Below, piece after piece: positions 1 through 56,680 of a stretch of 64,000 nucleotides of DNA. This DNA is from Azolla caroliniana (Eukaryota; Plantae; Polypodiophyta), in assembly GCA_043228905.1 (NCBI GenBank), contig JBHGNT010000008.1, positions 15,190,001 through 15,254,000 of the forward strand, written 5' to 3'. The translations under genes and the position numbers were made by a program. Within the stretch, counting starts at the first letter, position 1, and every line of letters starts with the position of its first letter. Under the pieces are notes generated by a model. It was not told the origin of the DNA. It was given only the letters and a program-made list of their open reading frames with translations, and searched no databases.

Positions 1-1908
1 TCACGCAAGTTTGACGCCGCCGAAATCAACTACGAAATTCATGATAAGGAGCTATTGGCAATAGTGGATTCTTTTATGCAATGGAGGCATTTTCTGGAGG
101 GATCCTCTCATCTGGTCATTGTATTTAGTGACCACAAGAACCTTGCCTACTTTCAGGATGCTCGTGTGTTGAATCGACGTCAACCTCGGTGGGCCCACTT
201 CCTCACGCGTTTCGACTTCAAAATTACATATTGTCCGGGGAAGCACCAAGGGAAGGCGGATGCATTATCACGACGTTCGTATCTAGCACCCCGTCCTGGC
301 GAGCCAGCTTTCGATAACCAAAAACAAGTCATCTTGGGACCGGCACGACTACAAGCAACACAGATCTTTGACATGCCCATGGATTCCCGCGTTATCGATA
401 CCATACGCAAAGACTTGAAGACAGATGAGTTTGCCCAAGCTATACTAGCACAAATTGATCCCTCTCGCGCGTCGTGTTCACAGTCGCAACCACCAGGTAC
501 GGACTATCGGCAATTCAAATACCATGATGGATTACTCTTCTTTAAAGAACTTTTGTATGTTCCTAATGGTTCTTGCCGTCCTCAAGTAGTACAAAATTGT
601 CATGACACATATACAGCTGGGCATTTTGTTAGTACTAAAACATTACATTTAGTACAACGATCATTCTGGTGGCCTTGTATGCGACAATTTGTCGAGGATT
701 TTGTTCGGACTTGTGATACATGCTGCAGAGCGAAAATGCCAAGGCATCATCCATATGGTTTATTAGAACCATTACCAATTCCAAGCAAGTCGTGGCAATC
801 CATTGCTCTAGACTTCATCACAGATCTTCCAGTCTCTAAGGGGTTCAATGCGATTCTAACGGTGGTCGATCGATATACGAAGATGGCTCATTTCTTGCCA
901 TGTACTAAGGAGATCTCCAGTGAAGACACTGCCGAAATTGTCATGCGTGAAGTATGTCGGCATCATGGAATTCCCGATAGTATCATCAGCGACAGTGGAC
1001 CCCAGTTCGTGTCAAAATATTGGAAGCTCCTTTTTAAGATGCTCAAGGTCACTTGTAACCTCTCCTCCGGCTACCACCCCCAAACCGATGGCCAAGCCGA
1101 ACGAACCAATCAAACACTGGAGCAGTATCTGCGGTGCTTTCTCAGCTATCATCAGGATGACTGGGCAGATATTCTCCACTTCGCCGAATTTGCCTATAAC
1201 AACTCTATCCACGCATCCACTAAAGTTACGCCATTTTATGCTTATACGGGATGTCACCCTCGGTGGTGTGTACTTGAAACCCCAGAGGTGTCCACAAATC
1301 CTTGCGCAGAAGATCGTTTGGAGAGGTTACGCAAGATACAAGCGGATGTATCTACTCACCTTCAACAAGCTCAACAAACACACAAGGTTTATGCGGATCG
1401 TCATCGACTCCCATCTAGTTTTAACATTGGAGATCGGGTATGGCTACTCCGACGACACATCAAGACCACTCGCCCATGCGAGAAGTTGGATTATCGGCGA
1501 TTAGGTCCTTTCCGTATTTTAGGAAAGATTAATGATGTCGCTTTTCGTCTTGATCTACCTCCACAACTTCGGATACATCCGGTGTTTCATAGTTCTCCCC
1601 TCGAACCCTATCAAGAGAGCACCATCCCAGGACGTATTACACAGCCTCCACCCCCGATTGAGCTTGAAGATGGACATGAGTACGAGGTTGCCGCCATCCT
1701 TGATTCCAAGCTTGTTCGCAACAAGCTCTACTATCTAGTCGATTGGCTAGGATATAGTCCCAACGAGCGTACTTGGGAACCGATAGAGAATGTCACCAAT
1801 GCTCGTGCTCTTCTTGAAGACTTCCATCGTCAATATCCAGACAAACCGGGTCCTCAATCCAAAACGACTCGTTACACTCGTCGTTTTAGAGGGGTGATAG
1901 TGTCATGA
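1..1908 (+). CDS. pol: Pol C-terminal part: RNase H, integrase (HHCC + DDE), chromodomain; 5' end outside the window
   Basis: Motifs SDHKNL, ADALSR, H-x4-GH...CDTC, DFITDLP, DGQAERTNQ, IHPVFH and YEVAAILDSK...YYLVDWLGY...TWEP. Closely similar to ORF 50038-53610. Confidence 0.95.
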   Translation, partial: SRKFDAAEINYEIHDKELLAIVDSFMQWRHFLEGSSHLVIVFSDHKNLAYFQDARVLNRRQPRWAHFLTRFDFKITYCPGKHQGKADALSRRSYLAPRPGEPAFDNQKQVILGPARLQATQIFDMPMDSRVIDTIRKDLKTDEFAQAILAQIDPSRASCSQSQPPGTDYRQFKYHDGLLFFKELLYVPNGSCRPQVVQNCHDTYTAGHFVSTKTLHLVQRSFWWPCMRQFVEDFVRTCDTCCRAKMPRHHPYGLLEPLPIPSKSWQSIALDFITDLPVSKGFNAILTVVDRYTKMAHFLPCTKEISSEDTAEIVMREVCRHHGIPDSIISDSGPQFVSKYWKLLFKMLKVTCNLSSGYHPQTDGQAERTNQTLEQYLRCFLSYHQDDWADILHFAEFAYNNSIHASTKVTPFYAYTGCHPRWCVLETPEVSTNPCAEDRLERLRKIQADVSTHLQQAQQTHKVYADRHRLPSSFNIGDRVWLLRRHIKTTRPCEKLDYRRLGPFRILGKINDVAFRLDLPPQLRIHPVFHSSPLEPYQESTIPGRITQPPPPIELEDGHEYEVAAILDSKLVRNKLYYLVDWLGYSPNERTWEPIENVTNARALLEDFHRQYPDKPGPQSKTTRYTRRFRGVIVS

Positions 1909-2313
1909 TATGGCAAGACTCGAACCCATGACCTTATGCTAAATGGGTCGAGCTCTTGACCATTAGACTATACATTGTAATACGTAGAATATTATTTTTA
2001 TTTATGTTTTATTATAGAAAATTGATGTATATTCCAGATTTCTCTGGAACATTCTAGAAACTTTAGGAGTATTCCTTAGAACACTATAAAAGGAGGCACA
2101 AGGCATTATTTCGAACCAAATCGGTTCAACGCCAGTCTTAAGCCTCCTAGCTACTGTACATTTCCTCACATAATATATATCTTTTCTTATCATCACTCTC
2201 TCTCTCCCTCCCTCTCACTCACTCTTTCCTTCTCTCGAGAGTCCTTCACCTCTCTTAGTACTAGTACTTCGTTTAGTACTAATTCCTTCTCTGTCTTAGT
2301 ACTGTTCCTGACA
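1..2313 (+). mobile_element. Ty3/gypsy chromovirus (Tf1/Tcn1-like), 3' part only; element A
   Basis: Pol C-terminus, PPT AGAGGGGTGATAG ending at 1900, then LTR 1901-2313 (TGTCA...TGACA) homologous to the LTRs at 48474 and 53622. Inserted into the RT of the minus-strand gypsy that resumes at 2314. Confidence 0.95.
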
Positions 2314-8734: not shown

Positions 8735-9240
8735 TGTTACATGTAGAAGGAAAGATTTGAACCTTGTACCTCTATATTAACAATCCCAACCCCTTACCTT
8801 TGTGGTTATTAATTATAGATTTAGTTTGTATAATATATCCTCACGTGCAAATTTTAGGAAACTTACTCATGCATGACTATTGTGCATGAGTACTATACTT
8901 AGAAAAAGCTACTCATGCACAACTAGTGTGCGTGAATACTAAAGTAAGAAAAAGCATGATGCTTGCCATAGGGTAAGTTATACTTATCCTCCCCCATCAT
9001 TATATAAGATGGGGAGTAAAATGTAATTGGGGGATTGATAAATTTTGAGGTAAAATTCTTGGGTATTATTAGGGTTTTAAATATTCATTAATAAAATACA
9101 TTATACTAATTGGATTCATGCATTTTCTATATCTCTCTCTTTCAAGCTATTCATGTCCTGATTTCTCTTAAAATTCTCCTCCTCCTAGTCCAAAACCTCA
9201 ATAGTTTCCACCCGACTCACACAACAATTTGGCGCCGAAA
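8735..9240 (+). mobile_element. Putative LTR followed by a TGGCGCC-type PBS (Athila/Tat-like)
   Basis: ...CACAACA-ATT-TGGCGCCGAAA at 9220-9240. 5' boundary uncertain. Antisense B-box-like GGTTCAAATC near 8754-8763. Confidence 0.4.
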
Positions 9241-25927: not shown

Positions 25928-26718
25928 AAACACACATTAGCGTGCACATTTCTACCAAAAGAGAGAGCCAGTAATCTGCTGCAGAAGACATAGTATCAAC
26001 CAAAGCGCCTCAAAATTGTGGCTCTTAAGAGTGTCAAAACGGAGCACAGACCAACGCGAGGTTGAGAAGGAAAACCACAAACTCATACATGATTACTTAA
26101 ATTTGGAATATATTTCTTCGATGACAGGCAGAAAATTTGGAATATATTTTCTCGATCGTAGGATTATACAATGTGTGTGTATATGTGTGTTTCGTTGACA
26201 AGCGTCGGAAAAATGTAGGGAGTTTGCATCAAGAACAACCTCATGTAAGACATGCCAAGATTTAATAGTAACAGGGTCTACAGAGAGTCGAAGTAGTGGT
26301 GCCAAAGAGGATCCATTGTGAACAAAATATTGGCTAACTAAATTAAGACCATACCTTCTCGTTGGGTGCTTAGTGAAGGGATCATGACCAATGTCCGCAT
26401 GAACAACACCATGACTAGCCACCACTCTCAAAAGTCTATCTAATGATACGGAAACTCTTATATTGGCATCTGGTACGACACTACTACTCATTCGTGACAC
26501 TATTTCTTCGACTGAATATAACCCTCATTCCATACCCTCCTCCTTTTCTATATCTGCATTTGCCATCACATCAAAGATGTTCAATTTTATGAGTGTGTTA
26601 ATTGCCATGGGCAAACAACACAATAAGCTCAATTCTACTCCCCTCAACCATGCTTCATTTTCCACTCCCTCACCCATCACCCCAAGCATCGACTCATTAA
26701 CAATGTCACCCATCCTCA

Positions 26719-26751
<33 letters not shown>

Positions 26752-28042
26752 GGTCTGTCTATCCCTCTCTATTCTAGGTGACTTTCTTATATAGCCTCAT
26801 CATAGGGTAGTTGTCTTGTCATATGATATAGACTTTCATATATAATCACAAGAAACAAGATTGAGAAGAAAACCAGAAAAGGAAAACTGAGCATGCTACT
26901 GCCAAACAATCAATTTTTATGTCAAGTAGGCCCAAATGAATGTAATGCTTTTGTCTTTCCTTTTTTAAATGCTAAACGACCAATTTCTATCTGAATTCCT
27001 ATGCAACGTAACATGTCACACAAGAGATTCACTGCACAGAAGATCAATGAAACACACATTAGCGTGCACATTTCTACCAAAAGAGAGAGCCAGTAATCTA
27101 CTGCAGAAGACATAGTATCAACCAAAGCGCCTCAAAATGTGTGTGTATGTGTGTTTCGTTGACAAGAGTCGGAAAAATGTAGGGAGTTTGCATCCTACTG
27201 TGCAAAAGAGGAAAGTGTACATAAAGAGAGTCTAGATGGATGTAGCTTAATTGCTAAGGTTGCACAATGGAGACCTGAGGGTTATGGGTTCAACCCTTAC
27301 AATCTAGAGTGGCATCTACTAAATTAAGACTGAAGTGATATCTATGGAGTAATAGAGAGGTAAGCAAATTGGCTTTCGAATCTAAGACTTCGTGTACATT
27401 AATAGTGGAGTGCACCAAAAAACAACAAGGGGGGAGGAGGACATAATGGGTTTGCCATTTGGATTGGTTCGAAGACAAGTTTTTTTTTGTTTTGTTTTGG
27501 GAGGGTTTTGCCATAAGTTTTGGTTTGCTTTGGTTTGCTTGGAGTTTGGTAAGTCGTCAAAGATTTAGAAAGCAAACAAAAATTACCGAAAAAGTGAAGA
27601 GAGAGGGAGAGAGAGAGAGAGAGAGACATGTTCCAAAGATCATACAGATTGGGATGTAAATCTAGCAGATCGGGTTTCGAACTGAAGACATAGTGCACAC
27701 TAATAGTGGAGGGCAACAAAAAATAACAAGGGGGGGAGGAGGACATAATGTGTTTGCCATTTGGATTGGTTCGAAGCGAAGCTTTTTTTTTGTTTTGTTT
27801 TGGGGGGGTTTTGCCATGAGTCTTGATTTGATTTGCTTTGCTTGGAGTTTGGTAAGACGTCAAAGATTTAGAAAGCAAACAACAATTACCGAAAAAGTGG
27901 AGAGCGAGGGAGGGAGAGAGAGAGAAACATGTTCCAAAGATCATACAACTTGGGATGTATGTGCATGTGTCTTATCTCTCTAGAAAGCACGAGGTCCCCA
28001 AAACTGTTGCTTTCTATACACACACACCCACACACCACACAT

Positions 28043-30382: not shown

Positions 30383-30739
30383 GAATAAAAGTATGCGAGT
30401 GGAAACACTATTATAACTAATCAGCTAGTAAAATGGTCATAGCTATCTAGTTTTTTGTGGGCAAATCATAAGGGTCATTTATGAAATTTTATGCTTTATT
30501 AGTTAAATACATGTCATTTAATTTATGAGAATGCTCAAAATTTTGAACTTTGCGGCTTAGGCATAGAGGACAAAACTGCTACTCTATTGGTACCCTTATG
30601 ACCATGCCACGACACATACCATATCGTTTGTTTTCAATATGCCTGTCACATTGCTATAGTCTGTTTGGGGGATTGCAATATAGCTCTCCTAGATGAGTGA
30701 AGAAAACTTATAGGTAAAATTGTTGCTTGGCTCTATAGT

Positions 30740-33265
30740 GTAGTAGCTAATTAGTTACATCTTAGCTAATTAGCTAAGCCGTATAAATTGTGGTAGCTAC
30801 TTAGTTGTTATGGTTCAGTAGTGTAGTAGCTAATTAGCTACAACCTAGGTATTAGCTAATTAGCCAAGATGTAAATAATTAGCTACTGCAAATCTATGGT
30901 TTAATAGCTAATTAGCTACTGCAAATCTATAGTCTAACAACTAATTAGCTATAGTGTAGCTAATTAGCTAAGCAGTATCAAAAGTGGTAGTTAATTAGCT
31001 ACTGCCATAGTTAAGAAGAATAGCTAATTAGCTACTATCATAATTAAGTAGAAAAGCTAATTAGCTACAACATCCTATAGTATAGTAGCGAATTAGCTAC
31101 TACCACACTTAAGTAGAATAGCTAATTAGCTTCGATGTAGCTAATTAGCTACTGCCAATCTAGAGTCAACATCTAATTAGCTAGCAATATCAAGAGTGGT
31201 AGCTAATTAGCTACTGCCATAATTAAGAAGAATAACTAATTAGCTAAGTTGTAGCTAATTAGTTACTCCCAATCTATAGTCTATAAGCTAATTAGCTAAG
31301 ATGTAGCTAATTAGGTAAACAATATCAAGAACGGTAGCTAATTAGCTCCTACCATACTTAACTAGCTAATTAGCTAAGATACAATAGCTAATTAGCTACT
31401 GAAGCCATAGTTAAGAAGAATAGCTAATTAGCTATTAAAGCCATAGTTAAGAAGAATAGCTAATTAGCTACTATCATAATTAACTAGAAAAGCTAATTAG
31501 CTACAACATCCTATAGTATAACAACGAATTAGCTACAATGTAGCTAATTAGCTAAGTGGTAGCTAATTAGCTACTACTACACTTAAGGAGAATAGCTAAT
31601 TAGCTACTGCCAATCTAGAGTGAACAACTAATTAGTTAGCAGTATCAAGAGTGGTAGCTAATTTGCTACTACCATAGTTAAGAAGAATAGCTAATTAGCT
31701 AAGTTGTAGCTAATTAGTTACTCCCAATCTATAGTCTATAAGCTAATTAGCTAAACAATATCAAGAATGGTAGCTAATTAGCTCCTACCATACTTAACTA
31801 GCTAATTAGCTAAGATACAATAGCTAATTAGCTACTACAGCCTATACTGTAGCAACTAATTAGCTACAATGTATTGAATTAGCTAAGTGGTAGCTAATTA
31901 GCTCCTACCATACTTAACTAGCTAATTAGCTAAGATACAATAGCTAATTAGCTACTACAGCCTATACTGTAGCAACTAATTAGCTACAATGTATTGAATT
32001 AGCTAAGTGATAGCTAATTAGGTATTGCCATAGTTAGGAAGAATAGCTAATTAGCTAAGATGTAGCAAATTAGCTAAGTGGTACCTAATTAGGTACTGCC
32101 AACCTATAGTCTAGTAGCTAATTAGCTAAGAAGTATCAAGAGTGGTAGCTAATTAGCTATTTCCATAGTTAGGAAAAATAGCTAATTAGCTAAGTGGTAG
32201 CTAATTAGCTACTGCCAACCTATAGTCTAGCAGCTAATTAGCTAAGATGTAGCCAATTAGTTAAGTGGTAGCTAATTAGCTACTACCAACCTATAGTCTA
32301 GTAACTAATTAGCTAAGATGTAGCTAATTAGCTAAGTGGTAGCTAATTAGCTATTGCCAACCTATCGTCTAGCAACTAATTAGCTAAGATATAACTAATT
32401 AGGTAAGTGGTAACTATTTAGCTACTACCAGTCTATAGTTTAGCAGCTAATTAGGTAAACAATATCAAGAGTGGTAGCTAATTAGTTACTACTATAGTTG
32501 GAAGAATAGCTAATTAGCTAAGTTGCAGCTAACTAGCTAAGTGGTAGCTAATTAGCTACTGCCAGCCTATAGTCTCGCAGCTAATTAGCTACTGCCATAG
32601 CTGGAAGAATAGCTAATTAGCTAAGATGTCGCTAACTAGCTAAGTAGTAGCTAATTAGCTACTGTCAACCTATAGTCTAGCAACTAATTAGCTAAGATGT
32701 ACCTAATTAGCTAAGTGGTAGCTAATTAGCTACTCCGAGCCTATAAACTAGTGACTAATTAGCTAAACAGTATCAAGAGTGGTAGCTAATTAGCTACTAC
32801 CATAGTTGGAAGAATAACTAATTAGCTAAGTTGTAGTTAACTAGCTAAGTGGTAACTAATTAGCTACTACCAACCTATACTCTAGCAGGTAATTAGCTAC
32901 TACCATAGTTGGAAGAATAACTAATTAGCTAAGTTGTCGCTAACTAGCTAAGTGGTAGCTAATTAACTACTGCCAATTAGCTATGACGTAGGTAATTAGC
33001 TAAGTGGTAGCTAATTAGCTACTTCCAACTTATAGTCTAACAGCTAATTAGTTATGAAGTAGCTAATTAGTTAAGCATTATCAAGAGTGATAGGTAATTA
33101 ACTACTACCATAGTTAAGAACAATAACTATTTAGCTAAGATGTAGCAGTATCGAGGAGTATCAAGAGTGGACGCTAATTACCTACCATGTAGCTAATTAG
33201 CTACCATGTTTAGAATTCAACTAAGGTCATAGAAAAACACAAGAGAAGCCACTAATTAGCTGACA
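30740..33265. repeat. Array 1 of palindrome TAGCTAATTAGCTA with short recurring spacers
   Basis: Roughly 100 copies (estimated, not counted). Spacers include AGATG, AGTGG, CTGCCATAGTTAAGAAGAA and AACAGTATCAAGAGTGG. An exact 120-bp higher-order repeat lies near 31780-32010. Confidence 0.95.
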
Positions 33266-35899: not shown

Positions 35900-38800
35900 A
35901 CAAATTCAATGGCATACTTTTGTAAATACATTCATACACATTAGCACTAACTGTGTATAAATCTGAGCAACTATTGTATTGCAACATCGGGACGTTGATG
36001 CACCTCACCAAATGAGACTACATGTACTCTACTGATTTGTCTTCTAAAAGCCTATACACATAATCATAATAATCTAGTCTTGCATAAAAAATACCTTTGA
36101 TGTAGAATGTCCCGACATATACAAAATTTCCCCAATCATCTACAATATTCTGTGTTGCACATTGTTTACGAACCATGCACTTCAATATATAGAAATCAAC
36201 ACCCTCTGATTTGTCTTCTTCTACATTTACAACGAAATTATTCCCAACGTTTATGACATCACTCAGAGTATCTCCACAACCTTGATATGTGAAGTCAACA
36301 TTGTTTTCTGTTTTTCCATCCGCTCGGTCCTTATCATTCTATGTATGGTACTCCCAATTCTGAATATATGCTTTGTTTAATCAATACCTCCAATTTCCCT
36401 GCACACAACGGAAGCAAAAACAAGTTAATTCTCTAACCGCAATACAATGACCATCCAACCTAGAATAACCCCAAACAACATGGAGAGATCACAATTTGGG
36501 AATTCCTTGGCACTCCCAGGTCTTCTCCCTATTTACTTCATCTATCTTCACTTCCCAAAATTCACGTTTGATATCTTAGACTTGAGAGGAATAAACACTA
36601 GTTGCACTCGTCCCTGCTCCATCATGTTCACCTTTACCATGGCCAGACCCAAAAAGATTCCATCTCATCTCCAAACCTGTTACAGAAGGATACCTCCCAA
36701 CAAAATAAAATGGACATCTAGCCTTTCGTTTATGACGTAGCTCCATTAGACTAGACCCAATATTGAGTAAGCTCCAAACGTTGACATAATAACCATTGCC
36801 AATGTAACTTAAAACAATGTTGGACAAACAAGGTATCATGCTTCTAATCATCAGAAATAAAAAAATGAATTACTTTCTTAACATCATCTGAAACTCGAAA
36901 ATATGTTATGTGCATTGAACACCAACGCATGGATTGAATTTTATTATGCTGCTTGAAAGTATAATTCTCTACGAAATCTCCTACTGAGTCTACTACATCA
37001 TTTGGAAAATCATATTTGCAAGTCTTAAACTGATGGGCTTGCCATGAATAAATGAAGTTGTGTTTAATGAACTTTCCTAGAGATACTATAAATAAAGAAA
37101 CCAAATCCCTTGGTTTAAGTGACTTCCTAACTAGATCCTTTATTTTACACACCTTTCCTTCAAAATTGGTGTCCATAGACTCAAAAACTTGATAGAGATT
37201 AATGTTTCACAACTCAACTCTTTTGGACACCACCTAAATCTACGAGGACCACAATCTTGACATAAACCCATACGACACATTTATGATTGTGGAAGATAGC
37301 CTCAGATTCTCTCAAACACAATACTGAATCTAAAAGACCACTCATGGAAGAGATAACATGCACTATGATTTACAGTGCTCTTGCAGGCTAGATCCACCAA
37401 TTGGCCATTCTCAAGTGCAGACTACATCGTCTAGGGAGGAGCTATTGTGACGTAGTAGATTAACAGATTCCTTGAGAAAACCCATTTGTACATGGTAAAT
37501 GCAACACCAGAGTATTGATCCTTTAAGCGTCTCACAAAGTGTGGCTTAAGAGACTCGAATGTTCGTAGTTGAACTTTGATATTTGGATGCATTCGCTTGA
37601 ACCTAATAAATAAATCAACTTTCGTAATAAAAAGGGAGTCCGGTGAGTATAAAAAATGTGCCCTAATGTAGCTAGTTAGATATAGCTAATTAGCTATTGA
37701 CTATAGCTAATGAGCTACCTCAATAGCTAGCTCTTGACATAGCTCATTAGCTATTGCCAGTAGCCAATTAGCTATTAAGAGTAGCTAATTAGATACTGAC
37801 TGTAGGTAATTAGCTATTAAGAGTAGGTAATTAGCCATTGACTATAGTTAATTAGCTATTAAGAGTAGCTAATTTACAATTGACAATAGCTAATTAGCTA
37901 ATGACATAGCTAGTTAGTTATTGCCAGTAACTAAATAGCTATTGACAATATCTAATTAGCTACCTTAATAATTAGCTAATTAGCTGATAAGTGCTAAGTT
38001 TACTATTGGCAATAGTTAAATAGTTCTTAACAGTAGCTACTTAGTTATGGTTATATTCTGAGGTAGTTAATTAGCTGATAATAACTTAGTTTAGTATTGG
38101 CAATAACTATTTATCTATTACCATTAGCTAGTTAGCTATGGTCATATTCTAAGATAGCTAATTAGCTATTGTGGTAGCTAATTAGTTGCTACACCAGTAA
38201 CTAGTTAGCTATGATCATATTCTGAGGTAGCTAATTAAATACCACAATAGCTAATTAGCTATCTCAAAATATGACCATAGCTAATTAGCTACCACAATAG
38301 CTAATTAGCTACCTTAGAATATGACCATAGCTAATTAGCTACCACAATAGCTAATTAGCTACCTCAGAATATGACCATAGCTAACTCGCTAATGGTAATA
38401 ACTAAATATCTATTGCCAATACTAAACTAAGCTATTATTAGCTAATTCGCTAGTTAGCTATGGTCATATTCTGAGTTAGCTAATTAGCTATTGTGGTAGC
38501 TAATTAGCTGATAATAGCTTAGTTTAGTAATGGCAATAACTATTGAGCTATTACCATTAGCTAGTTAGCTATGGTCATATTCTGAGGTAGCTAATTAGCT
38601 ATTGTGGTAGCTAATTAGCTATGGTCATATTCTGAGATAGCTATTTAGCTATTGTGGTAGCTAATTAACTGCTACACTAGTAACTAGGTAGCTATGCTCA
38701 TATTCTGAGGTAGCTAATTAGCTATTGCGGTAGCTAATTAGCTGATAATAGCTAAGTTTAGTATTGGCAATAACTATTTAGCTATTACCAGTAGCTAGTT

Positions 38801-39400
38801 AGCTATGATCATATTTTTAGGTAGCTAATTAGCTATGGTCATATTCTGAGTTAGCTAATTAGCTATTGTGGTAACTAACTAGGTGATAATAGCTAAGTTA
38901 GGTATTGTCAATCGCTATTTAGCTATTACCAGTAGCTAGTTAGCTATGGTCATATTCTGAGGTAGCTAATTAGCTACTGGTAATAGCTTAATAGATATGG
39001 TTATACTCTGAGATAGCTAATTAGTTGATAATAGTTAAGTTTGCTATTGTCAATCGCTATTGAGCTATTACCAGTAGCTAGTTAGCTATGATCATATTCT
39101 AAGATAGCTAATTAGCTAACTAACTAAGCGTAAAAATCAAAACAAAAGTTGACATAAATGTAAATACCTAAGGTACATCAAGAAGATGAATGGGATATTC
39201 CTCGTATTGACTCGTTCCAACACGTTTCCTACATAAATCCTTCTTATTAGGTGAAATCCTACTCTCATTAGTCCAAAATATGGTGATTATATCCTTGATT
39301 TTTGATGTTATGGGTGTCATTGGCTTACATCTTGTTGTTAGCTTTAGCAAACTAATTCCTTCACCACTTGAAATTATTTGGTTCATTGTATTGTACACAA
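35900..39400 (-). pseudogene. Sola2-like DDD transposase, decayed, with the second palindrome array in a putative intron
   Basis: Ordered motifs SRISPNKKD, FESLKPHFV, CCIYHVQM, HNFIYSWQ, DFVENY...IQSMRW, ISDD..HD, WV*SNG, WNLFGSGHGKGEHDGAG and RELTCFCFRC. Family assignment is from recalled motifs and needs an HMM check. Confidence 0.75.
37665..39125. repeat. Array 2 of palindrome TAGCTAATTAGCTA with a different spacer set and an internal inversion
   Basis: Spacers TTAAGAG, TTGTGG and TGGTCATATTCTGAGG. Segment ~38240-38450 carries the reverse-complement spacers CCACAA and CCTCAGAATATGACCA. Confidence 0.93.
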
Positions 39401-48473: not shown

Positions 48474-48550
48474 TGTCATGAGATGGCAAGACTCGAACCC
48501 ATGACCTTATGGTATATGGGTCGAGCTCTTAACCATCTCACCATCTATTG
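48474..48550 (-). promoter_or_regulatory. tRNA-like Pol III A/B-box module at the LTR outer end (also 1901-1977 and 53622-53698)
   Basis: Minus strand reads TGGTGAGATGG (TAGTCTAATGG in element A) ... AGGTC-ATGGGTTCGAGTC with tRNA-like spacing. Confidence 0.65.
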
Positions 48551-48904
48551 TAATTCATAGAATATTATTTTCATTTATGTTTTATTATAAGAAAGTAATG
48601 TATATTCCAGATTTCTCTGGAACATTCTAGAAGCTTCAGGATTATTCCTGAGAACACTATAAAAGAAGGCACTAAGCATTATGTTGAACCAAATTGGTTC
48701 AACACCAGTCTTAAGCCTCTTAGTCGATTTGTACTTATCTTTCATATAATATAAGAGCTGCTGTCATCATCCTATCTCTCTCTCTCTCTCCTCTTCTCAC
48801 TTCCTCTCTCTCGGGAATCTTACGCAGTCCCGTCCTCTTAGTACTAATAGTACTACTCTTCTTAGTACTAATTCCATCTCTGTTTTAGTACTATTCCTGA
48901 CAGT

Positions 48905-50041
48905 TTGAACCAATCCGTTTTCTCCGAGCTACAGTGCCTAAAAGAAAAGTTTGTTGCCTTGGAACAAGAAAACCAACGGCTGATAGGGGATCTGCAACAA
49001 ATCGCTCTAGAAAAACAACAAACGCAACAACAACATGGGGAGTTAGCGTTACGGGTACAACAACTCGAAGCAGCGTTGCAACAACAAGGATCCAGTCCCC
49101 AAGGATTTCATAAAGAGCCCAAGATTGGACTTCCTGTGAAATTTGATGGAACGCGTTCGCAATTTCGGGGATTCCTTAATCAGGTACGCTTAGTCATCCA
49201 GATGCATCCTTCCCGATATCCCACTGATGCATCTCGAGTCGGCCTAATAGGCACGCTACTTAGCGGCTCAGCCTTGGCATGGTTCGCTCCGCTTCTAGAA
49301 AAACAATCGCCCCTGCTTAATAACTTTGAAGATTTTATTGGTGAGTTTAAAGCCTGCTTTGGAGACACCGACAGCATCAGGACGGCGATCAACAAGATCC
49401 GGCGATTGCGTCAAGGCGATCGTCCAGCCTCTGCCTACGCGGCGGATTTCCGCCTACTTGCTTCAGATATACCCTGGGATGATCAAGCACTAATGGAGCA
49501 GTTTCGCTATGGCTTGCGAAACGATGTCAAAGATCTACTTCTAACTTTCCCCGAAGAACCAAAGTCTCTTACGGAGGCAATCAGTCGAGCAGTTCGATGT
49601 GACAACCGCCTTTTTGAACGGCGTTCAGAACGTCAATTACAGATACCACGCTCTAGGCCAGAGCCCACTTACGCCGCAGTCGCGGCTAAACCGTTTGCAC
49701 GAGACATACCTCAAGCAAATACTTCGACACCGATGGAGATCGATACCATGCGTCGACGCGGCCCGTTATCGGAAGAAGAAAAGCAACGACGACGTGCCAA
49801 TCGATTATGCCTTTATTGCGGTGGACCAGGACATATCGCCATCAATTGTCCCCATAGGCCAAGAAGACAGGTAAATCAAATTGTCGCCTGTACTAAACCT
49901 GAGTCAATTCTTCCCTTCGGAGTGTCTGATAGTAGTAATAGTACTAATAGAGTGTCAGATAGTATTCATAGTACTAATAGCCCAAGTATCTCAAATAAAT
50001 TTGAAATCCTTAGTCAATTAGATGAAGAGTTAAACGATTGA
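48905..50041 (+). CDS. gag: Gag (coiled-coil N-terminus, capsid, CCHC knuckle); start codon uncertain
   Basis: KFDG...F...SALAWF, LRQG, QFRYGL, PMEID and CLYCGGPGHIAINCP. First in-frame ATG is only at 49202. Confidence 0.93.
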   Translation: MNQSVFSELQCLKEKFVALEQENQRLIGDLQQIALEKQQTQQQHGELALRVQQLEAALQQQGSSPQGFHKEPKIGLPVKFDGTRSQFRGFLNQVRLVIQMHPSRYPTDASRVGLIGTLLSGSALAWFAPLLEKQSPLLNNFEDFIGEFKACFGDTDSIRTAINKIRRLRQGDRPASAYAADFRLLASDIPWDDQALMEQFRYGLRNDVKDLLLTFPEEPKSLTEAISRAVRCDNRLFERRSERQLQIPRSRPEPTYAAVAAKPFARDIPQANTSTPMEIDTMRRRGPLSEEEKQRRRANRLCLYCGGPGHIAINCPHRPRRQVNQIVACTKPESILPFGVSDSSNSTNRVSDSIHSTNSPSISNKFEILSQLDEELND

Positions 50042-50084
50042 GTCCAGCCAAAATAGGAGCCATTTGGTTGGACAGCAGCCCTAG
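50029..50084 (+). promoter_or_regulatory. -1 programmed ribosomal frameshift signal
   Basis: G TTA AAC at 50029-50035 in gag phase, 6-nt spacer, then an 11-bp stem (50042-50052 with 50063-50073). The pol frame opens only at 50026. Confidence 0.8.
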
Positions 50085-53000
50085 ATCTGTACAGCCCATT
50101 AGTGGTTCCATTCCTTCCAAGCAAGTTAGCAATGTGTTCCTAGCCCAAGTCATTGTTAGTACTAAAAGTACTCCCCCAGTACCCGTCCTAGCACTTTTAG
50201 ATTCCGGAGCTAATTCCTGTTTCATGGATCGAAATTTTGCCCAAGCTTCTCAGATATCCTTAAGAAAACTTCCTTGTCCCGCATCTGTAGTGGTCATTGA
50301 TGGTCGTCCCATTGCTTCCGGGAATATTGTAGAAGAATCAGAACCCATTCAAGTTGTCCTAGGTAGTTTTGTGTGTATAATATCATTTAATATAATTAGT
50401 AGTCCAGAGCATCCCATTGTCCTAGGATTACCTTGGCTTGAGTTACATAATCCAGCCATAGATTGGAGAACAAGAGAAGTCCGATATCGACCACCCCAAG
50501 AATCAACTCGCCGAGTTTCGACCATTTCACTCCATCAACTACGCGAAGAAGGACCCAAGGAGGAAATGTTCCTATTTTCCATATCAGTACATCCTTCCAG
50601 CACTATTAAGAAGGACTCCTCAGTACAACTTCCGGCAAAATATCATCCTTATGCCGATGTATTTGACAAGGTAAAAGCCGGTACCCTTCCTCATCACCGT
50701 CCCTATGACTGTCCCATCGATTTACAACCAGGAACCGAGCCACCATGGGGACCAATTTACAACCTGTCACCCACCGAGTTAGAAGTCCTTCGAGCCTACA
50801 TAGAGGAGAACTTGGCAAGCGGGTTCATCCGTCATTCGAAATCTCCGGCCGGTGCACCCATCTTCTTTGTCAAGAAGAAAGATGGCTCACTTCGTCTTGT
50901 CGTTGATTACCGCGGATTAAATAAAGTCACCATCCGGAATAGGTATGCACTTCCTCTTATATCAAGTCTTTTAGAGCGAGTTAATGGTGCCAAGTTTTTT
51001 ACTAAAATCGACCTACGCGGAGCGTATAATCTCGTGCGGATCCGACCGGGAGATGAGTGGAAGACCGCTTTTCGCACGCGGTATGGGCATTTTGAGTATA
51101 CTGTTATGCCGTTTGGCCTAACCAATGCACCCGCAGTCTTCCAACACATGGCAAATGATATATTCAGAGACCTCTTGGATATCTGTTTGATCATTTATCT
51201 GGATGATCTGTTGATTTATTCGAAGACCCAGGAAGAGCACGACTCTCATGTACTATTAGTACTAAAGCGACTCCGCGAGAATGGTCTTTATGCCAAGCTA
51301 GAAAAATGTAGCTTTGACTGCAAGCAAGTGGAATTTCTAGGCTACGTCATCTCCTCAAAGGGCATCGCCATGGATCCAGCTAAGATCCAAACTGTACTAG
51401 AGTGGCAAATTCCACGGTCGGTACGAGATGTACAATGTTTTCTAGGTTTTGCTAACTTCTACCGTAAGTTTATACAGGATTACTCGAAGATTATTTTACC
51501 TCTCACACAACTTACGAAGAAGGGCCAAGCATTTCTTTGGTCCATTGAAGCAGATATGGCTTTTCGGCATCTTAAGAAAGCCTTTACATCAGCACCGATT
51601 CTAGCTCATGTGGATACAAGCAAACCATTCATCATGGAGGCCGACGCATCAGATTTCGCCCTCGGTAGCATCCTTTCTCAACAAGGTGATAAAGAAGAGT
51701 TGCATCCGGTGGCTTTCCATTCGCGCAAATTCGATGTCGCAGAAATCAACTACGAAATACATGACAAGGAGTTATTAGCCATCGTGGATTCATTTGTACA
51801 ATGGCGGCATTTCTTAGAGGGCTCTCCACATCAGGTCATTGTCTTCAGCGATCATAAAAATCTTGCTTATTTTCAGAACGCTCGCGTACTAAATCGACGG
51901 CAAGCTCGGTGGGCGCAATTCCTCATGCGTTTCGACTTTAAAATCACATATCGACCGGGGAAGCAGCAAGGAAAAGCAGATGCACTATCACGACGTTCAT
52001 ATCTTGCACCTCGTCCTGGTGAAGCAACATTTGATAATCAAAAGCAAGTAATCTTGGGACCAACACGATTGCACACGACGCGGATTTTTCACACCCCGAT
52101 GGATTCACGGATTACCGATGACATACGTGCAACCTTGAAGACGGATAGTTTTGCTCAAGACATCCTGGCGCACATTGATACTTCTCGGGCATCCTGTTCT
52201 CAGTCTCAACAACCAGGTATTGACTACCGACAATTCGAATATCATGATGGTTTGTTATTCTTTAAAAAGCACGTATATGTCCCCGATTGCTCCTGTCGCC
52301 TTCAAATTGTCCAACATTGTCACGACACCCATACGGCGGGACATTTCGGTAGTACTAAGACGTTGGAGCTAGTGCAGCGATCTTTTTGGTGGCCCCACAT
52401 GCGCCGTTTTGTCGACGACTACGTTCGGACCTGTGATGCTTGCTGCCGAGCAAAAATGCCACGACACCATCCATATGGCTTGTTGGAACCTTTACCAATT
52501 CCAAGTAAGCCATGGCAGTCTATTTGTCTTGATTTTATCACAGATCTGCCGGTCTCGAAAGGGTTCGATGCTATCCTAACCGTCGTCGATCGATATACGA
52601 AGATGGCACATTTTGTGCCATGTACTAAAGCTATCACTAGCGAGGAAACCGCCGCTCTTGTTATGCGTGAGGTTTTTCGGCATCATGGCCTCCCAGACAG
52701 TATTATCAGTGACCGAGGCCCGCAATTTGTCTCCAAATTTTGGCAGCATCTCTTCAAGATGCTCAAGGTCTCCTGCAACCTCTCCTCCGGCTACCATCCT
52801 CAAACCGACGGACAGGCGGAACGAACAAACCAAACGCTGGAGCAATATCTCCGGTGCTTCCTGAGTTATCAACAGGACGATTGGGCCGAGATTCTCCACT
52901 TTGCGGAGTTTGCGTATAATAATGCTATTCACTCCTCGACTCGGGTCTCCCCATTTTTCGCTTATACCGGTTTCCATCCTCGCTGGTCGGTGATCGACAC

Positions 53001-53610
53001 TCCGGAGCTACCTACCAACCCTCGTGCCGAGGATCATTTGGAGAGGCTACGCAAGATCCAGATGGATCTCTCTACTCACCTTCGTCATGCTCAACACACA
53101 CAGAAGACTTATGCGGATCGTCATCGGATTCCCTCCTCTTTTGCCATCGGAGATCGAGTATGGCTCTTACGTCGTCACATCAAGACTACTCGACCGTGCG
53201 ACAAGTTGGATTATCGACGACTCGGTCCTTTCCGTATTACGGGGAAGATTAATGACGTCACCTTCCGCCTTGATCTCCCTCCGCAGCTTCAGATACATCC
53301 GGTTTTCCATTGTTCTCTTCTTGAACCTTATAAAGCAAACACCATTCCCGATCGTGTGACACCACCGCCGCCCCCACTGGAGTTGGACGCCGGCCCGGAG
53401 TATGAAGTTGCTGCCATCCTCGATTCCAAACTTGTTCGCAACAAACTCTATTACTTGGTCGATTGGCTCGGTTATAGTCCGAGCGAACGTACTTGGGAAC
53501 CCGTCGAGAATGTTGCCAATGCACAAGATCTTCTTGCTGATTTCCACCGAAAGTATCCGGACAAACCCGGTCCGCAAGTAGCGCTGACTCGTTCCACTCG
53601 TCGTCTTTAA
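50038..53610 (+). CDS. pol: Pol (protease, RT, RNase H, integrase, chromodomain) in the -1 frame relative to gag
   Basis: LLDSGA, MPFGL, YLDD, DASDFALG, HHCC/DDE integrase and C-terminal chromodomain; 1190 codons open. Confidence 0.97.
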   Translation: MSPAKIGAIWLDSSPRSVQPISGSIPSKQVSNVFLAQVIVSTKSTPPVPVLALLDSGANSCFMDRNFAQASQISLRKLPCPASVVVIDGRPIASGNIVEESEPIQVVLGSFVCIISFNIISSPEHPIVLGLPWLELHNPAIDWRTREVRYRPPQESTRRVSTISLHQLREEGPKEEMFLFSISVHPSSTIKKDSSVQLPAKYHPYADVFDKVKAGTLPHHRPYDCPIDLQPGTEPPWGPIYNLSPTELEVLRAYIEENLASGFIRHSKSPAGAPIFFVKKKDGSLRLVVDYRGLNKVTIRNRYALPLISSLLERVNGAKFFTKIDLRGAYNLVRIRPGDEWKTAFRTRYGHFEYTVMPFGLTNAPAVFQHMANDIFRDLLDICLIIYLDDLLIYSKTQEEHDSHVLLVLKRLRENGLYAKLEKCSFDCKQVEFLGYVISSKGIAMDPAKIQTVLEWQIPRSVRDVQCFLGFANFYRKFIQDYSKIILPLTQLTKKGQAFLWSIEADMAFRHLKKAFTSAPILAHVDTSKPFIMEADASDFALGSILSQQGDKEELHPVAFHSRKFDVAEINYEIHDKELLAIVDSFVQWRHFLEGSPHQVIVFSDHKNLAYFQNARVLNRRQARWAQFLMRFDFKITYRPGKQQGKADALSRRSYLAPRPGEATFDNQKQVILGPTRLHTTRIFHTPMDSRITDDIRATLKTDSFAQDILAHIDTSRASCSQSQQPGIDYRQFEYHDGLLFFKKHVYVPDCSCRLQIVQHCHDTHTAGHFGSTKTLELVQRSFWWPHMRRFVDDYVRTCDACCRAKMPRHHPYGLLEPLPIPSKPWQSICLDFITDLPVSKGFDAILTVVDRYTKMAHFVPCTKAITSEETAALVMREVFRHHGLPDSIISDRGPQFVSKFWQHLFKMLKVSCNLSSGYHPQTDGQAERTNQTLEQYLRCFLSYQQDDWAEILHFAEFAYNNAIHSSTRVSPFFAYTGFHPRWSVIDTPELPTNPRAEDHLERLRKIQMDLSTHLRHAQHTQKTYADRHRIPSSFAIGDRVWLLRRHIKTTRPCDKLDYRRLGPFRITGKINDVTFRLDLPPQLQIHPVFHCSLLEPYKANTIPDRVTPPPPPLELDAGPEYEVAAILDSKLVRNKLYYLVDWLGYSPSERTWEPVENVANAQDLLADFHRKYPDKPGPQVALTRSTRRL

Positions 53611-54536
53611 GGGGGAGATAGTGTCATGAGATGGCAAGACTCGAACCCATGACCTTATGGTATATGGGTCGAGCTCTTAACCATCTCACCATCTATTGTA
53701 ATTCATAGAATATTATTTTCATTTATGTTTTATTATAAGAAAGTAATGTATATTCCAGATTTCTCTGGAACATTCTAGAAGCTTCAGGATTATTCCTGAG
53801 AACACTATAAAAGAAGGCACTAAGCATTATGTTGAACCAAATTGGTTCAACACCAGTCTTAAGCCTCTTAGTCGATTTGTACTTATCTTTCATATAATAT
53901 AAGAGCTGCTGTCATCATCCTATCTCTCTCTCTCTCTCCTCTTCTCACTTCCTCTCTCTCGGGAATCTTACGCAGTCCCGTCCTCTTAGTACTAATAGTA
54001 CTACTCTTCTTAGTACTAATTCCATCTCTGTTTTAGTACTATTCCTGACAGTCTGTTCTTTTCTGGAAGTTAGGGTTTGTCCGTTTCAAGTAGTTGTCGT
54101 CAGCAGAGGTTCTCAACCCTCCCACTCTGATACCATGAAAATGTTAATATGCGGAAATTTTAATAAAACGGCTCAGTCGGATAGCAACAGAATATTGACA
54201 GGTTTAATGGAAGCTTAGAATACACAGTACACGGGAGAGACAAAGAGAGCAGAACAAATAAACTAAATTCAAAATAATAACACTCTATGTACATACAAAT
54301 ATCCTACATAACCCTTTTTATACAACTCCTTAAAATGAATGGCAGAAGTATTGATAGGTACTTCAATGCTCATATGAGTGACTGACAATGACTCCCAACA
54401 ATACGCTTACGTACAATGCTCATATGGTTACAATCCGGTCAGTCTCTCCGTTCCGGCTCCTGGTTCCGGATATCGATCCGGTTCTTCGTTCCAGAATCCA
54501 ATCCGGCTTTGGTTTATTGAGCTTGTCTGCTCAACA

Positions 54537-55198: not shown

Positions 55199-56680
55199 TT
55201 GCATGTAAATCGTCCCCTCAGTTTCTGGCATGGGGACTATACGTTCTTGGTAGTTGAGGACCGATTTACCAAAATGGTGCATTTTATACCATGTTTCAAA
55301 GCCATCTTAGGCTTAAAGACAATGAATCTAATTTTGGCGAATTTTGTGCGCCTCCATGGGTTTGCTGATAACATCATCTCCGATTGTGGTGCACCACTTA
55401 TTTCCCATTTTTGGAAACGTCTCTTCCATATTCTCGACACCACCACCAAGTTATTGATGACATTCCATCCACAAATAGACGGGCAAATGGAATGCGTAAA
55501 TCAGGTACTAGAGCAATATCTTCGATGTGTGGTGAGTTACCAACAAGACGATTGGACTAAGTTCCTCCCATTGACTGAATTCTCTTATAATAGCACCCTT
55601 CATTCATCCATCGACACCTCCCCATTCTTTGCCAACTTTGGTTTCCAACCTCACTTCAACATATCCCTTCCCTCTGGTTCGGTGAAAACCGTGGCAGAAG
55701 AGCGGGCACCTCGTCTAAAAGAAATCCACCAAAATCTAACTCTTGAGCTCGTTAATGTGCAAGACCGACAAAAGGCAATGGCCAACCATCTACGGGCTTC
55801 GGCATCCAACTTTCAAGTAGGTGACATGGACTACCTACTACGGCACAATATTATGACCACTCGTCCATGTGCCAAGCTAGATTACATAAAATTGGGCCCC
55901 TTCCGCATCTTTACCTTCCTCCACACTATCACGTCCATGATGTTTTTCATGTATCTCTCTTGGAGGTTTACCATCCCTCCGTACTTCCCGGACGGCAACC
56001 CGCTCGACCATCACCCACCGAGTTGGAGTTTGGCAATGAGTATGAAGTTGAAGAAATCCTTGACTCCAAGCTTCTACTTCGAAAACTCGATTATCTGGTA
56101 CCCTAGAAAGGATACCCGATATTTGAAGCTACTTGGGAACCTCACCACCATTTGACGAATGCAACCGAGGTAGTTCGTGATTTCCATCTTCGTTATCCAC
56201 ACAAGCTTGTGCTAAACATGGGGGATAATGTCACAAACATGGCAACGGTCATCTCAAGGTTTGAACTCGTGACCTCTTGTGTTATAATCAAGTGTTATGT
56301 GTTAACCAACATGTCCAATATACAGTTATATGCATAATTGTTCCTTGTAGCATTAAGCTAGCATCATGAGCTTAATTGCTCCATTGTATTATTCACACTT
56401 GGCACATGCATGCGTACATACATGCTCAAGTGTATCACATGCACGCAACAGGCATGCATGCCTCTTAGTATAAATATTTGAGTTCACCTTGAATGAAATC
56501 AAGGTGAACAAGACTAGTTAATGATACTTGCTCCTTAGCTTTTCAATCGTCTGTTTGTAGCACTTTTAGGCTTGTCGATCGCATCCTTGTAGTTCCGATT
56601 CTTCTTTCCTTGATATTAATATCCGATTTCATTAGTATCCTAATCTTTTCACCTTGCTTGTTTATGGTTTCTTAAAGACA
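55199..56680 (+). mobile_element. Decayed chromovirus 3' fragment (integrase, chromodomain, PPT, LTR ~56229-56680); element C
   Basis: DRFTKMVHFIPC, HPQIDGQ, HDVFHVSLLE and EYEVEEILDSK. GGGGGATAA-TGTCAC at 56220-56234. Putative LTR end ...AAGACA at 56680. Confidence 0.82.

What the first reader, a model, noticed from the sequence alone, without database searches (positions are those of the whole stretch)
48474..48550. tRNA-derived A-box/B-box module antisense at the outer tip of chromovirus LTRs
Seen: the reverse complement of the LTR start is ...TGGTGAGATGGTTAAGAGCTCGACCCATATACCATAAGGTCATGGGTTCGAGTCTTGCC. This has an A box (48543-48533), the tRNA variable-loop AGGTC and a B box GGTTCGAGTC (48499-48490) at tRNA spacing. 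Element A has a different but still canonical A box, TAGTCTAATGG (1970-1960), with the same B box (1926-1917). The anticodon arm does not pair, so it is not a tRNA gene. Knowledge: Cassandra TRIMs carry 5S-derived Pol III promoters in their LTRs, and TFIIIC-bound B boxes can act as chromatin barriers. Inference: an autonomous retrotransposon with a built-in outward-facing Pol III promoter or insulator. From the 3' LTR it would transcribe antisense into the PPT/chromodomain end.
Basis: partly seen in the sequence, partly recalled or inferred. Interest (0 to 1): 0.75.

Follow-up and report, generated by a model that had tools for sequence, protein, structure and literature searches.

The report
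Outward tRNA promoter at retrotransposon tip
A recently inserted, intact plant jumping gene carries at the outer tip of both end repeats a backwards, tRNA-like stretch with both RNA polymerase III promoter boxes that is predicted to fold into a long hairpin and hardly varies across its family, and it likely serves as a binding site that would shield the element's own promoter from silencing, though no binding or transcript has been shown.

Summary
Confirmed and extended. An intact chromovirus (48474-54050; identical 429-nt LTRs, 5-bp TSD, predicted Tf1-type self-priming) carries an antisense A box / AGGTC / B box module at exact tRNA spacing, starting 16 nt inside each LTR. It beats 2000 of 2000 shuffles on a tRNA profile but is no tRNA gene. 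In family contigs the B-box arm shows no common variant (0 of 20 positions). The arm pairing with it is nearly as fixed (1 of 21), the loop varies, and A-box conservation is not significant; the intact element breaks A14. A second, distant chromovirus in the window also has an antisense tRNA-like block at its U3 tip, without the hairpin; its closer relative L122 and all 64 related LTR tips lack one. Best reading (0.45): a captured tRNA/SINE promoter kept as an outward TFIIIC site or barrier. Main rival (0.30): a replication hairpin beside the PPT. No binding or RNA evidence. Closest known: Helenus and Cassandra (non-autonomous; Helenus-1_SMo is sense). This scan noted tRNA boxes in fungal LTRs before. 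New variant, interest 0.5.

The parts
48474..54050 (+). Element B: intact Ty3/gypsy chromovirus, Tf1/sushi (Tcn1-like) type
   Evidence: LTRs 429 nt with 0 differences, TG...CA ends, TSD GTCTG on both sides; gag and pol with chromodomain
48474..48902 (+). 5' LTR of element B
48490..48543 (-). tRNA-derived module spanning A box to end of B box (tRNA positions 8-61)
   Evidence: sequence; tRNA profile 15.2 bits over 48482-48537
48533..48543 (-). A box, with G at position 14 (non-canonical in element B)
   Evidence: sequence; variation at the matching element-A positions
48503..48507 (-). tRNA variable-loop word AGGTC (positions 44-48); GTC part lies in the hairpin loop of element A yet shows no common variant
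48490..48499 (-). B box GGTTCGAGTC; one of T54/T55 is bulged out of the predicted hairpin but kept
   Evidence: no variant or indel row at 1917-1926
48479..48540 (.). Long imperfect hairpin covering the module (both strands); outer 8-bp stem is longer in B than in A
   Evidence: MFE -34.4 (+) and -38.0 (-) kcal/mol, z -5.33 and -6.26, 0 of 200 shuffles each
48580..48589 (-). AT-rich TATA-like block about 30-39 nt upstream of tRNA position 1; possible TFIIIB site (inferred)
   Evidence: identical in A and B; position; plant tRNA upstream TATA near -35 (PMC3082873 passages)
48658..48665 (+). Pol II TATA box of the LTR (predicted)
   Evidence: sequence; 35 nt before the predicted RNA start
48693..48702 (+). 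Predicted RNA 5' end acting as self-primer
   Evidence: 10-bp duplex with 48905-48914 in the folded 5' UTR
48905..48914 (+). Self-priming PBS (complementary to the LTR, not a tRNA-end motif)
   Evidence: neighbouring stem 48759-48765 with 48898-48904
48872..50041 (+). gag ORF (stop to stop, 389 aa)
   Evidence: Pfam Retrotrans_gag, Ty3_capsid
50026..53610 (+). pol ORF (PR-RT-RH-IN-chromodomain, 1194 aa), in the -1 frame relative to gag
53608..53618 (+). Polypurine tract just before the 3' LTR
   Evidence: sequence
53622..54050 (+). 3' LTR of element B with an identical module (53638-53691, minus strand)
1901..2313 (+). 3' LTR of element A (82% identical to B), module 1917-1970 on the minus strand with canonical A box and the same hairpin
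56246..56316 (-). Element C: tRNA-like block 17 nt inside the 3' LTR tip (56229) of a second, decayed chromovirus; no rod hairpin
   Evidence: Rfam tRNA 21.4 bits, below the gathering score of 29; PPT and chromodomain upstream; fold z -0.95/+1.21
8746..8800 (-). Element D (tentative): tRNA-like block near the presumed start (8735) of an LTR that ends at 9226 before an Arg-type PBS motif
   Evidence: tRNA profile 13.9 bits; LTR start not verified, no second copy in the window

Best explanation
The tip of U3 in this chromovirus family holds an antisense, tRNA-derived A box / B box module that was likely captured from a tRNA gene or SINE and is likely kept as an outward-facing TFIIIC binding site that would shield the element's Pol II promoter from surrounding heterochromatin, with at most weak antisense Pol III transcription. 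Shown: the boxes, their tRNA spacing and orientation, the lack of common variants across the B-box arm, and a similar block at the U3 tip of a second, distant chromovirus. Predicted by folding: a long hairpin. Inferred: capture of just the promoter span (positions 8-61); TFIIIC binding at the B box; TFIIIB loading on the AT-rich block at 48580-48589, about 70 nt upstream of the Pol II TATA box; a barrier effect useful to an element whose chromodomain likely targets silent chromatin. The hairpin is a second constraint. It likely arose as the captured sequence lost its cloverleaf, as SINE RNAs do (recalled), and may act at the 3' end of the genomic RNA beside the PPT.
For: (1) Origin: tRNA profile 15.3-16.2 bits, 0 of 2000 shuffles; only positions 8-61 are tRNA-like, and acceptor and T stems do not pair. 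(2) No variant at 4% or more at 20 of 20 positions of the B-box arm, against 12 of 29 flank positions variable at 10% or more (Fisher P=6e-4). Positions 18-27 nt from the other LTR end do vary (48875-48884), so nearness to an end does not alone explain it. (3) Features the hairpin does not need are kept: the bulged T of the B box, the unpaired loop bases 1931-1933, and the A-to-B spacing (no indel row). (4) In element A's register the common A-box variants stay within the degenerate classes (R9, Y11, N12, Y16); T8, A14, G18 and G19 have no variant row. (5) Element C, 46-50% aa from B but 69-71% from module-less L122, has an antisense tRNA-like block with a canonical B-box core 17 nt inside its tip and no rod. 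The shared feature is the outward T-arm/B box, not the hairpin. (6) Precedent for TFIIIC-bound boundaries in yeasts (PMC3395662, PMC2040200, listing with abstract start; PMC9540200 passages).
Against: The arm that pairs with the B box is not promoter sequence, yet only 1 of 21 positions varies at 10% or more (P=0.004 against flank), so structure is under constraint too. Fixed A-box positions are not significantly conserved (0 of 5, P=0.14; outside the hairpin 0 of 3, P=0.27), and G10 varies at about 10% in one run. The intact, youngest element B has G14, a change that helps extend the outer stem to 8 bp. No T4 terminator within 700 nt in B's 3' LTR context. CAA lies at tRNA positions 1-3, not at -10 to -3 as in plant tRNA genes. 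Other parts of this LTR also fold well (z about -3.2). Variant shares come from contig depths, not copy counts, and variants near the ends of the stretch are under-reported (the 48579 variant is missing at the matching position 2006). The plant review read names tRNA-gene insulators for animals and TFIIIC barriers for yeast, not for plants. C is a single decayed copy and D's LTR start is unverified.
Confidence: 0.45

Rival explanations
1. The working unit is the hairpin directly behind the PPT, on the genomic RNA or on single-stranded cDNA (plus-strand priming, strand transfer, packaging or end protection). The tRNA-derived sequence was only raw material and the boxes are inert.
For: z -3.8 to -6.3 in both elements; both arms conserved while the loop varies; position 1942 is C or T in nearly all laid depth, and both pair with G1930 on the sense RNA; element B's changes lengthen the stem at the cost of A14; the stem starts 5 nt after the LTR start, next to the PPT.
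Against: Does not explain the kept bulge, the unpaired invariant loop bases or the fixed A-to-B spacing, nor C and D, which have the outward T-arm without a significant fold (z -0.95 to +1.21). No LTR tip among 64 related loci was tested for an equivalent conserved hairpin beyond single MFE values.
Confidence: 0.3
2. Neutral passenger: a tRNA or SINE piece was copied into U3 once or a few times (for example by tRNA mis-priming near the U3 tip, which would give this antisense geometry) and persists because it sits by the integrase end, while template switching keeps the two arms alike.
For: tRNA-like heads are common in this window's repeats (6 hits of 13 bits or more in 4 families); the LTR is rich in inverted repeats; the module is family-specific (0 of 64 related tips); an earlier AI note judged a fungal case a passenger (e1-9852194, untested here).
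Against: Sequence 17-36 nt from the U3 end shows one minor variant (1934, 5% in one run) while the matching zone at the U5 end varies. The pattern holds in runs labelled as three organisms. Two distant lineages have such a block at the same place and in the same orientation.
Confidence: 0.15
3. The sense RNA uses the anti-tRNA stretch to bind a host tRNA through its T arm, as the 3' part of the bipartite Ty3 primer site in U3 does, bridging or chaperoning the RNA ends.
For: Explains the antisense orientation; Ty3 has tRNA-binding segments in U3 (PMC5371799 passages); the 17-mer is found unchanged in many real tRNAs.
Against: The element is predicted to self-prime and has no tRNA-end PBS; the hairpin would bury most of the anti-T-arm; no host tRNA set was available to test for an exact partner.
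Confidence: 0.07
4. Chance likeness: an inverted duplication made a hairpin that happens to resemble tRNA boxes.
For: T16, G18 and G19 of the A box are also the pairing partners of the outer stem; Rfam and ARAGORN do not call it.
Against: 0 of 2000 shuffles reach the profile score; no hit of 10 bits or more in 20 shuffled windows; T8, R9, G10, Y11 and AGGTC lie at exact tRNA positions and, in element A, largely outside the stem.
Confidence: 0.03

Closest known systems
Helenus (TRIMp3; Kojima 2024, PMC10886601; parts 1-4 of 6, searched passages and supplement passages read)
   Same: tRNA-derived sequence in both LTRs, conserved around boxes A and B, not a functional tRNA; proposed origin by SINE insertion into an LTR; one family known from a non-seed plant (Selaginella). 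The paper also says that 'not a few LTRs' in Repbase contain a sequence similar to part of a tRNA, but analyses only TRIMs.
   Different: Helenus is non-autonomous and short (311-1263 bp), tRNA-primed, and its Pol III promoter is proposed to make the template RNA; Helenus-1_SMo has the boxes in the sense direction. Here the element is autonomous (5.6 kb), predicted to self-prime, has a Pol II TATA box, and the module is antisense at the outer U3 tip and folded into a rod.
Cassandra and Ajax TRIMs (5S-derived LTR promoters; as described in PMC10886601)
   Same: Pol III gene piece fixed in LTRs; Ajax keeps only the promoter span, as this module does (positions 8-61).
   Different: 5S type 1 promoter, non-autonomous, drives the element's own RNA (shown for Cassandra); here a tRNA type 2 promoter facing away from the element.
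Tcn1 / Tf1-sushi chromoviruses of non-seed plants (PMC6317226, PMC2864245, PMC10085805; passages)
   Same: Chromodomain integrase, no tRNA-end PBS, predicted self-priming 5' UTR with central and flanking duplexes, 5-bp TSD, LTR of similar length to SM-Tcn1 (440 bp).
   Different: No tRNA-like U3 module is mentioned in the passages read; 0 of 64 related LTR tips carry one.
Extra TFIIIC (ETC) sites and tRNA-gene chromatin barriers of yeasts (PMC3395662, PMC2040200 listing with abstract start; PMC9540200 passages)
   Same: A B box with a weak or missing A box can bind TFIIIC and act as a boundary without Pol III transcription.
   Different: Those are fixed chromosomal sites shown by ChIP; here the site would be carried by a mobile element in a plant and binding is untested.
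Ty3 bipartite PBS (PMC5371799 passages); tRNA-like sequence in HIV-1 U3-R (recalled; paper not held)
   Same: Sequence complementary to tRNA arms in U3 at the 3' end of the genomic RNA.
   Different: Those elements are tRNA-primed; this one is predicted to self-prime and hides the anti-T-arm in a hairpin.

Membership tests
tRNA gene | Cloverleaf with paired acceptor, anticodon and T stems; called by covariance model or ARAGORN | tested here: not met
   the T stem does not close as in real tRNAs with the same 17-mer; rod fold instead
Type 2 (tRNA-like) Pol III promoter | B box with GGTTC core (motif as in PMC10886601) | tested here: met
   48499-48490, 1926-1917; no variant row
Type 2 (tRNA-like) Pol III promoter | A box at tRNA spacing (full consensus with A14 is recalled) | tested here: inconclusive
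   spacing exact; canonical in A, G14 in B; conservation of fixed positions not significant
Type 2 (tRNA-like) Pol III promoter | Plant upstream signals: TATA/AT-rich near -35 and CAA at -10 to -3 | tested here: inconclusive
   AT-rich block at -39 to -30 shared by A and B, CAA at +1 to +3; these signals are weak in non-flowering plants (PMC13578239 passages)
Type 2 (tRNA-like) Pol III promoter | Oligo-T terminator shortly downstream | tested here: not met
   B 3' LTR: no T4 within 700 nt; B 5' LTR: first at +566 in flank; A: T4 at +114
Type 2 (tRNA-like) Pol III promoter | TFIIIC/Pol III occupancy or a Pol III transcript | not testable with these tools
   only assembled contigs were offered; they show neither strand nor RNA ends
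TRIMp3 (Helenus/Cassandra/Ajax) | Non-autonomous, short, no coding capacity | tested here: not met
   5577-nt element with intact gag and pol
TRIMp3 (Helenus/Cassandra/Ajax) | Small-RNA-derived sequence in both LTRs | tested here: met
TRIMp3 (Helenus/Cassandra/Ajax) | Pol III promoter oriented to transcribe the element's template RNA | tested here: not met
   module is antisense and points out of the 5' LTR; the predicted template start lies 35 nt behind a TATA box
Chromovirus, Tf1/sushi (Tcn1) group | Chromodomain at the integrase C terminus | tested here: met
   PF00385, E 1.3e-13
Chromovirus, Tf1/sushi (Tcn1) group | Self-priming 'pretzel' 5' UTR instead of a tRNA PBS | tested here: met
   predicted 10-bp primer/PBS duplex plus neighbouring LTR stem; criteria from PMC10085805; RNA start inferred, not mapped
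Chromovirus, Tf1/sushi (Tcn1) group | RT-RH-INT tree placement with named Tcn1 references | not tested
   no labelled Tcn1 reference among the 120 homologues listed; no tree was built
ETC-type TFIIIC barrier | TFIIIC bound without Pol III and blocking of heterochromatin spread | not testable with these tools
   needs ChIP and a reporter

The most novel reading that the evidence does not exclude
Several autonomous LTR-retrotransposon lineages in this non-seed plant have each fixed an outward-facing tRNA-type promoter at the very tip of U3. It works as a portable TFIIIC barrier that lets heterochromatin-targeting chromoviruses stay transcribable after inserting into silent chromatin, and in one lineage the same sequence doubles as an RNA hairpin beside the PPT.
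Probability: 0.2. Interest if true: 0.8.

Novelty: new variant of a known kind. Interest (0 to 1): 0.5.

Why it matters
How chromoviruses that aim at silent chromatin remain expressible is an open question, and the plant barrier review read here names no TFIIIC barrier in plants. A conserved, high-copy, mobile B box at the promoter-distal LTR tip would give both questions a direct test. It would also extend Pol III promoter capture from TRIMs to autonomous elements, in the opposite orientation. If the hairpin is the working unit, it is a new cis signal next to the PPT of a self-priming element. Searches found no description of this arrangement beyond Kojima 2024; the library lacks most subscription papers and Repbase was not searchable.

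Tried and rejected
No whole genome was held, so no genome-wide LTR alignment was possible; contig depths from public runs were used instead. No RNA holder was listed. Run X21 (RNA is a guess) laid 3 low-depth contigs on the element-A tip; contigs show neither strand nor ends, so this is no evidence either way. Close relatives with DNA could not be fetched: proteins at 62-94% identity exist, but the best loci were at 57% or less in metagenomes, 7 loci in viral contigs, 80 in genome contigs, and the single-protein scan found none. Pattern scans of viral contigs gave tRNAs, matches of 21 nt or less to the LTR, 4 loci without pol or nothing. In one search, 123 of 167 related loci had usable downstream DNA and 6 of 123 had a B-box-like 10-mer within 500 nt, 64 of 167 had a PPT plus TG tip found by pattern (some may be false) and none scored as an antisense module (best 7.1 bits, sense strand). 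Pairing of the U3-tip sequence with the self-primer was weak (-7.0 against -11.6 kcal/mol for the PBS) and was dropped. Lower CpG decay in the B box than at 1949-1950 could not be told from the 4% listing threshold. G-U asymmetry did not settle which strand's hairpin is selected (1942 favours the sense strand, 1958 the antisense). No tRNA isotype could be assigned, for lack of plant tRNA sequences. Helenus-1_SMo was compared by eye only. The landing-pad idea of e1-10420520 was not tested beyond seeing no insertion upstream of the boxes in the 3 A/B LTRs. Position 1942 was left out of the regional counts because it closes the stem. Look-ups of earlier notes by sequence and by relatives found nothing.

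Full report
The element. The finding lies at the start of a complete LTR retrotransposon, element B (48474-54050). Its two 429-nt LTRs are identical and it is flanked by the target duplication GTCTG, so it inserted recently. It has an open gag frame and an open pol frame with protease, RT, RNase H, integrase and a chromodomain. A purine tract precedes the 3' LTR. The bases after the 5' LTR are not a tRNA-end primer site. Folding from 48693, 35 nt behind a TATA box, pairs 48693-48702 with 48905-48914 next to a second LTR stem, as in the self-priming structure of Tf1/sushi elements (PMC10085805 passages). In plants this type is reported for the Tcn1 clade of mosses and club-mosses (PMC6317226 passages). 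I did not place it on a tree with named references. Element A (ending at 2313) is a sister copy, 82% identical in the LTR.

The observation. A sequence profile built from 122 other tRNAs of fetched viral loci, none holding that 17-mer, scores A at 16.2 and B at 15.3 bits. None of 2000 dinucleotide shuffles per LTR reaches this, while 77 held-out tRNAs score 20.9-54.1. Twenty locally shuffled windows give no hit of 10 bits. ARAGORN and the Rfam tRNA model do not call the module, and its T stem does not close as it does in the real tRNAs. So it is tRNA-derived, covers about the internal promoter span (8-61), and is not a tRNA gene. Element B's A box has G at position 14; only A's is canonical.

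The module is an imperfect inverted repeat. It folds into one long stem on either strand, with z -5.33 and -6.26 in B and -3.96 and -3.77 in A. The anticodon-side stretch is complementary to the T arm. The next two 87-nt pieces of the LTR also fold well (z -3.22 and -3.19), so this LTR is generally rich in hairpins.

Conservation. No genome was held. I laid assembled contigs of public runs on the LTRs: four runs on B's whole LTR (40 of 73 variant rows shown) and four on A's first 130 nt (all 36 rows shown, threshold 4%; three DNA-type runs labelled organisms A, C and E were used for counts). The B-box arm (1911-1930) has 0 of 20 variable positions. The loop (1931-1941) has 5 of 11 at 4% and 3 of 11 at 10%. 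The pairing arm (1943-1963) has 4 of 21 and 1 of 21. The outer A box (1964-1970) has 4 of 7 and 3 of 7. The flank (1971-1999) has 14 of 29 and 12 of 29. Position 1942 was left out; it is C or T in nearly all depth and closes the stem. Against the flank, Fisher P is 6e-4 for the B-box arm, 0.004 for the pairing arm, 0.14 for five fixed A-box positions and 0.27 for the three outside the stem. Positions are not independent, depth is not copy number, and variants close to the ends of the stretch are under-reported, so these are guides only. Two readings follow. The hairpin is under constraint: a non-promoter arm is conserved, the loop is free, and B's own changes extend the outer stem to 8 bp at the cost of A14. 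The B-box sequence also seems constrained beyond pairing: one of its two T is bulged yet never lost, unpaired loop bases 1931-1933 are fixed, no indel is listed between the boxes, and common A-box variants stay within R9, Y11, N12 and Y16. At the other LTR end, positions 18-27 nt from the tip vary, so end position alone does not explain the fixed zone.

Promoter context. On the minus strand an AT-rich TATA-like block lies 30-39 nt upstream of tRNA position 1 and is identical in A and B. Plant tRNA genes have TATA near -35 and CAA at -10 to -3 (PMC3082873, PMC13578239 passages); here CAA is at +1 to +3. There is no run of four T within 700 nt downstream in B's 3' LTR context; A has one at +114. 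A defined short Pol III RNA is therefore not predicted for B.

Distribution. Proteins 62-94% identical exist in metagenomes, but their DNA could not be fetched. Among 167 loci of more distant relatives (best full-length match 57%), 64 had a recognisable PPT and LTR start, and none had an antisense tRNA-like block there. The module is not a clade-wide trait. However, the profile found other tRNA-like heads in the window. One (56246-56316, minus strand) begins 17 nt inside the 3' LTR of element C, a decayed chromovirus. Rfam scores it 21.4 bits as tRNA, below the gathering score of 29 (E 0.026 in 221 nt; E 7.5 in the whole window). C is 46-50% identical to B in protein but 69-71% to L122, whose LTR is 81% identical to C's around TATA and R yet lacks the block. 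Another head (8746-8800, minus) lies near the presumed start of an LTR followed by an Arg-type PBS motif; that start is unverified. Neither folds significantly. Eight other LTR-end stretches of the window gave no profile hit (some ends only approximately placed). So at least two distant lineages in this host have an outward T-arm/B box at the U3 tip, by independent capture or by exchange of LTR tips. tRNA-like heads also occur away from LTR tips (27240 family, 4923-4969), so donors are plentiful in this genome.

Mechanism. I rank first (0.45) a captured tRNA/SINE promoter kept as an outward TFIIIC site. It would sit between flanking chromatin and the Pol II promoter, and by facing outward it would not transcribe through that promoter. 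TFIIIC sites without Pol III act as boundaries in yeast (PMC3395662, listing with abstract start). All of this is inference. Second (0.30) is a hairpin signal beside the PPT with inert boxes; the two are not exclusive. Third (0.15) is a passenger, perhaps from tRNA mis-priming in U3. A Ty3-like tRNA-binding site in U3 (PMC5371799 passages) is unlikely (0.07) because the element is predicted to self-prime and the stem hides the site. Chance is nearly excluded (0.03).

Known systems. Helenus TRIMs have tRNA-derived LTR sequence with conserved boxes, and Kojima notes that not a few Repbase LTRs contain part of a tRNA, but studies only short non-autonomous elements and argues that autonomous ones must use Pol II (PMC10886601). 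The Selaginella family has its boxes in the sense direction (supplement seen only as searched passages). This element fails TRIMp3 membership on autonomy and orientation. Paper searches found no account of an antisense tRNA-type module at the U3 tip of an autonomous plant element; one search returned 0 papers with all six terms. Earlier AI notes of this scan describe tRNA boxes in fungal retrotransposon LTRs, so LTR capture of tRNA pieces recurs; I did not test those notes.

Verdict. A real, conserved feature and a new variant of a known kind. Interest 0.5.

Noticed in passing
window 56229-56316: Second chromovirus (element C, decayed; integrase-chromodomain remnant 55241-56205) with an antisense, partly cloverleaf-folding tRNA-like block 17 nt inside its 3' LTR tip; closer relative L122 lacks it.
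   Followed up: partly
window 8735-9226: Probable LTR followed by an Arg-type PBS motif, with an antisense tRNA-like block near its presumed start; the loop at the anticodon position reads TTGTTAA, which looks Asn-like (recalled). No second copy to fix the LTR start.
   Followed up: partly
window 27240-27302, 28144, 28729, 41112 (+): tRNA-like head with A and B boxes (up to 17.4 bits) inside a repeated unit of several hundred bases with GA microsatellites; possible SINE-like or tandem family.
   Followed up: no
window 4923-4969 (-): Weak SINE-like head (5.5 bits) between the presumed PBS near 6150 and the coding remnants of a minus-strand gypsy element.
   Followed up: no
window 48682-48704: A 10-bp hairpin spans the U3-R border. 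In the 3' LTR RNA its U3 arm would sequester the second copy of the self-primer sequence (duplex -14.9 kcal/mol). The primer itself reads like a B box in the sense direction, with no A box upstream.
   Followed up: partly
window 48604-48635 and 48838-48885: Further palindromic blocks in the LTR; 48604-48635 has the highest laid depth of the whole LTR in 4 of 4 runs, suggesting another conserved cis element.
   Followed up: no
window 50026-50041: gag and pol overlap, pol in the -1 frame, so pol is likely made by frameshifting.
   Followed up: no
window 24064-27143: ORF pieces that look by eye like a plant O-methyltransferase (not scanned), with a 927-nt, 96% identical duplication at 25095-26020 / 26227-27143.
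   Followed up: no
window 30700-33200 and 37700-39100: Arrays built from an AGCTAATT-type palindromic unit, with long inverted repeats that give spurious miRNA-family hits.
   Followed up: no
window 9542-20192: Nested, oppositely oriented copia-type elements with LTR pairs 9542/12905 and 14815/19585; their LTR ends have no tRNA-like block.
   Followed up: partly
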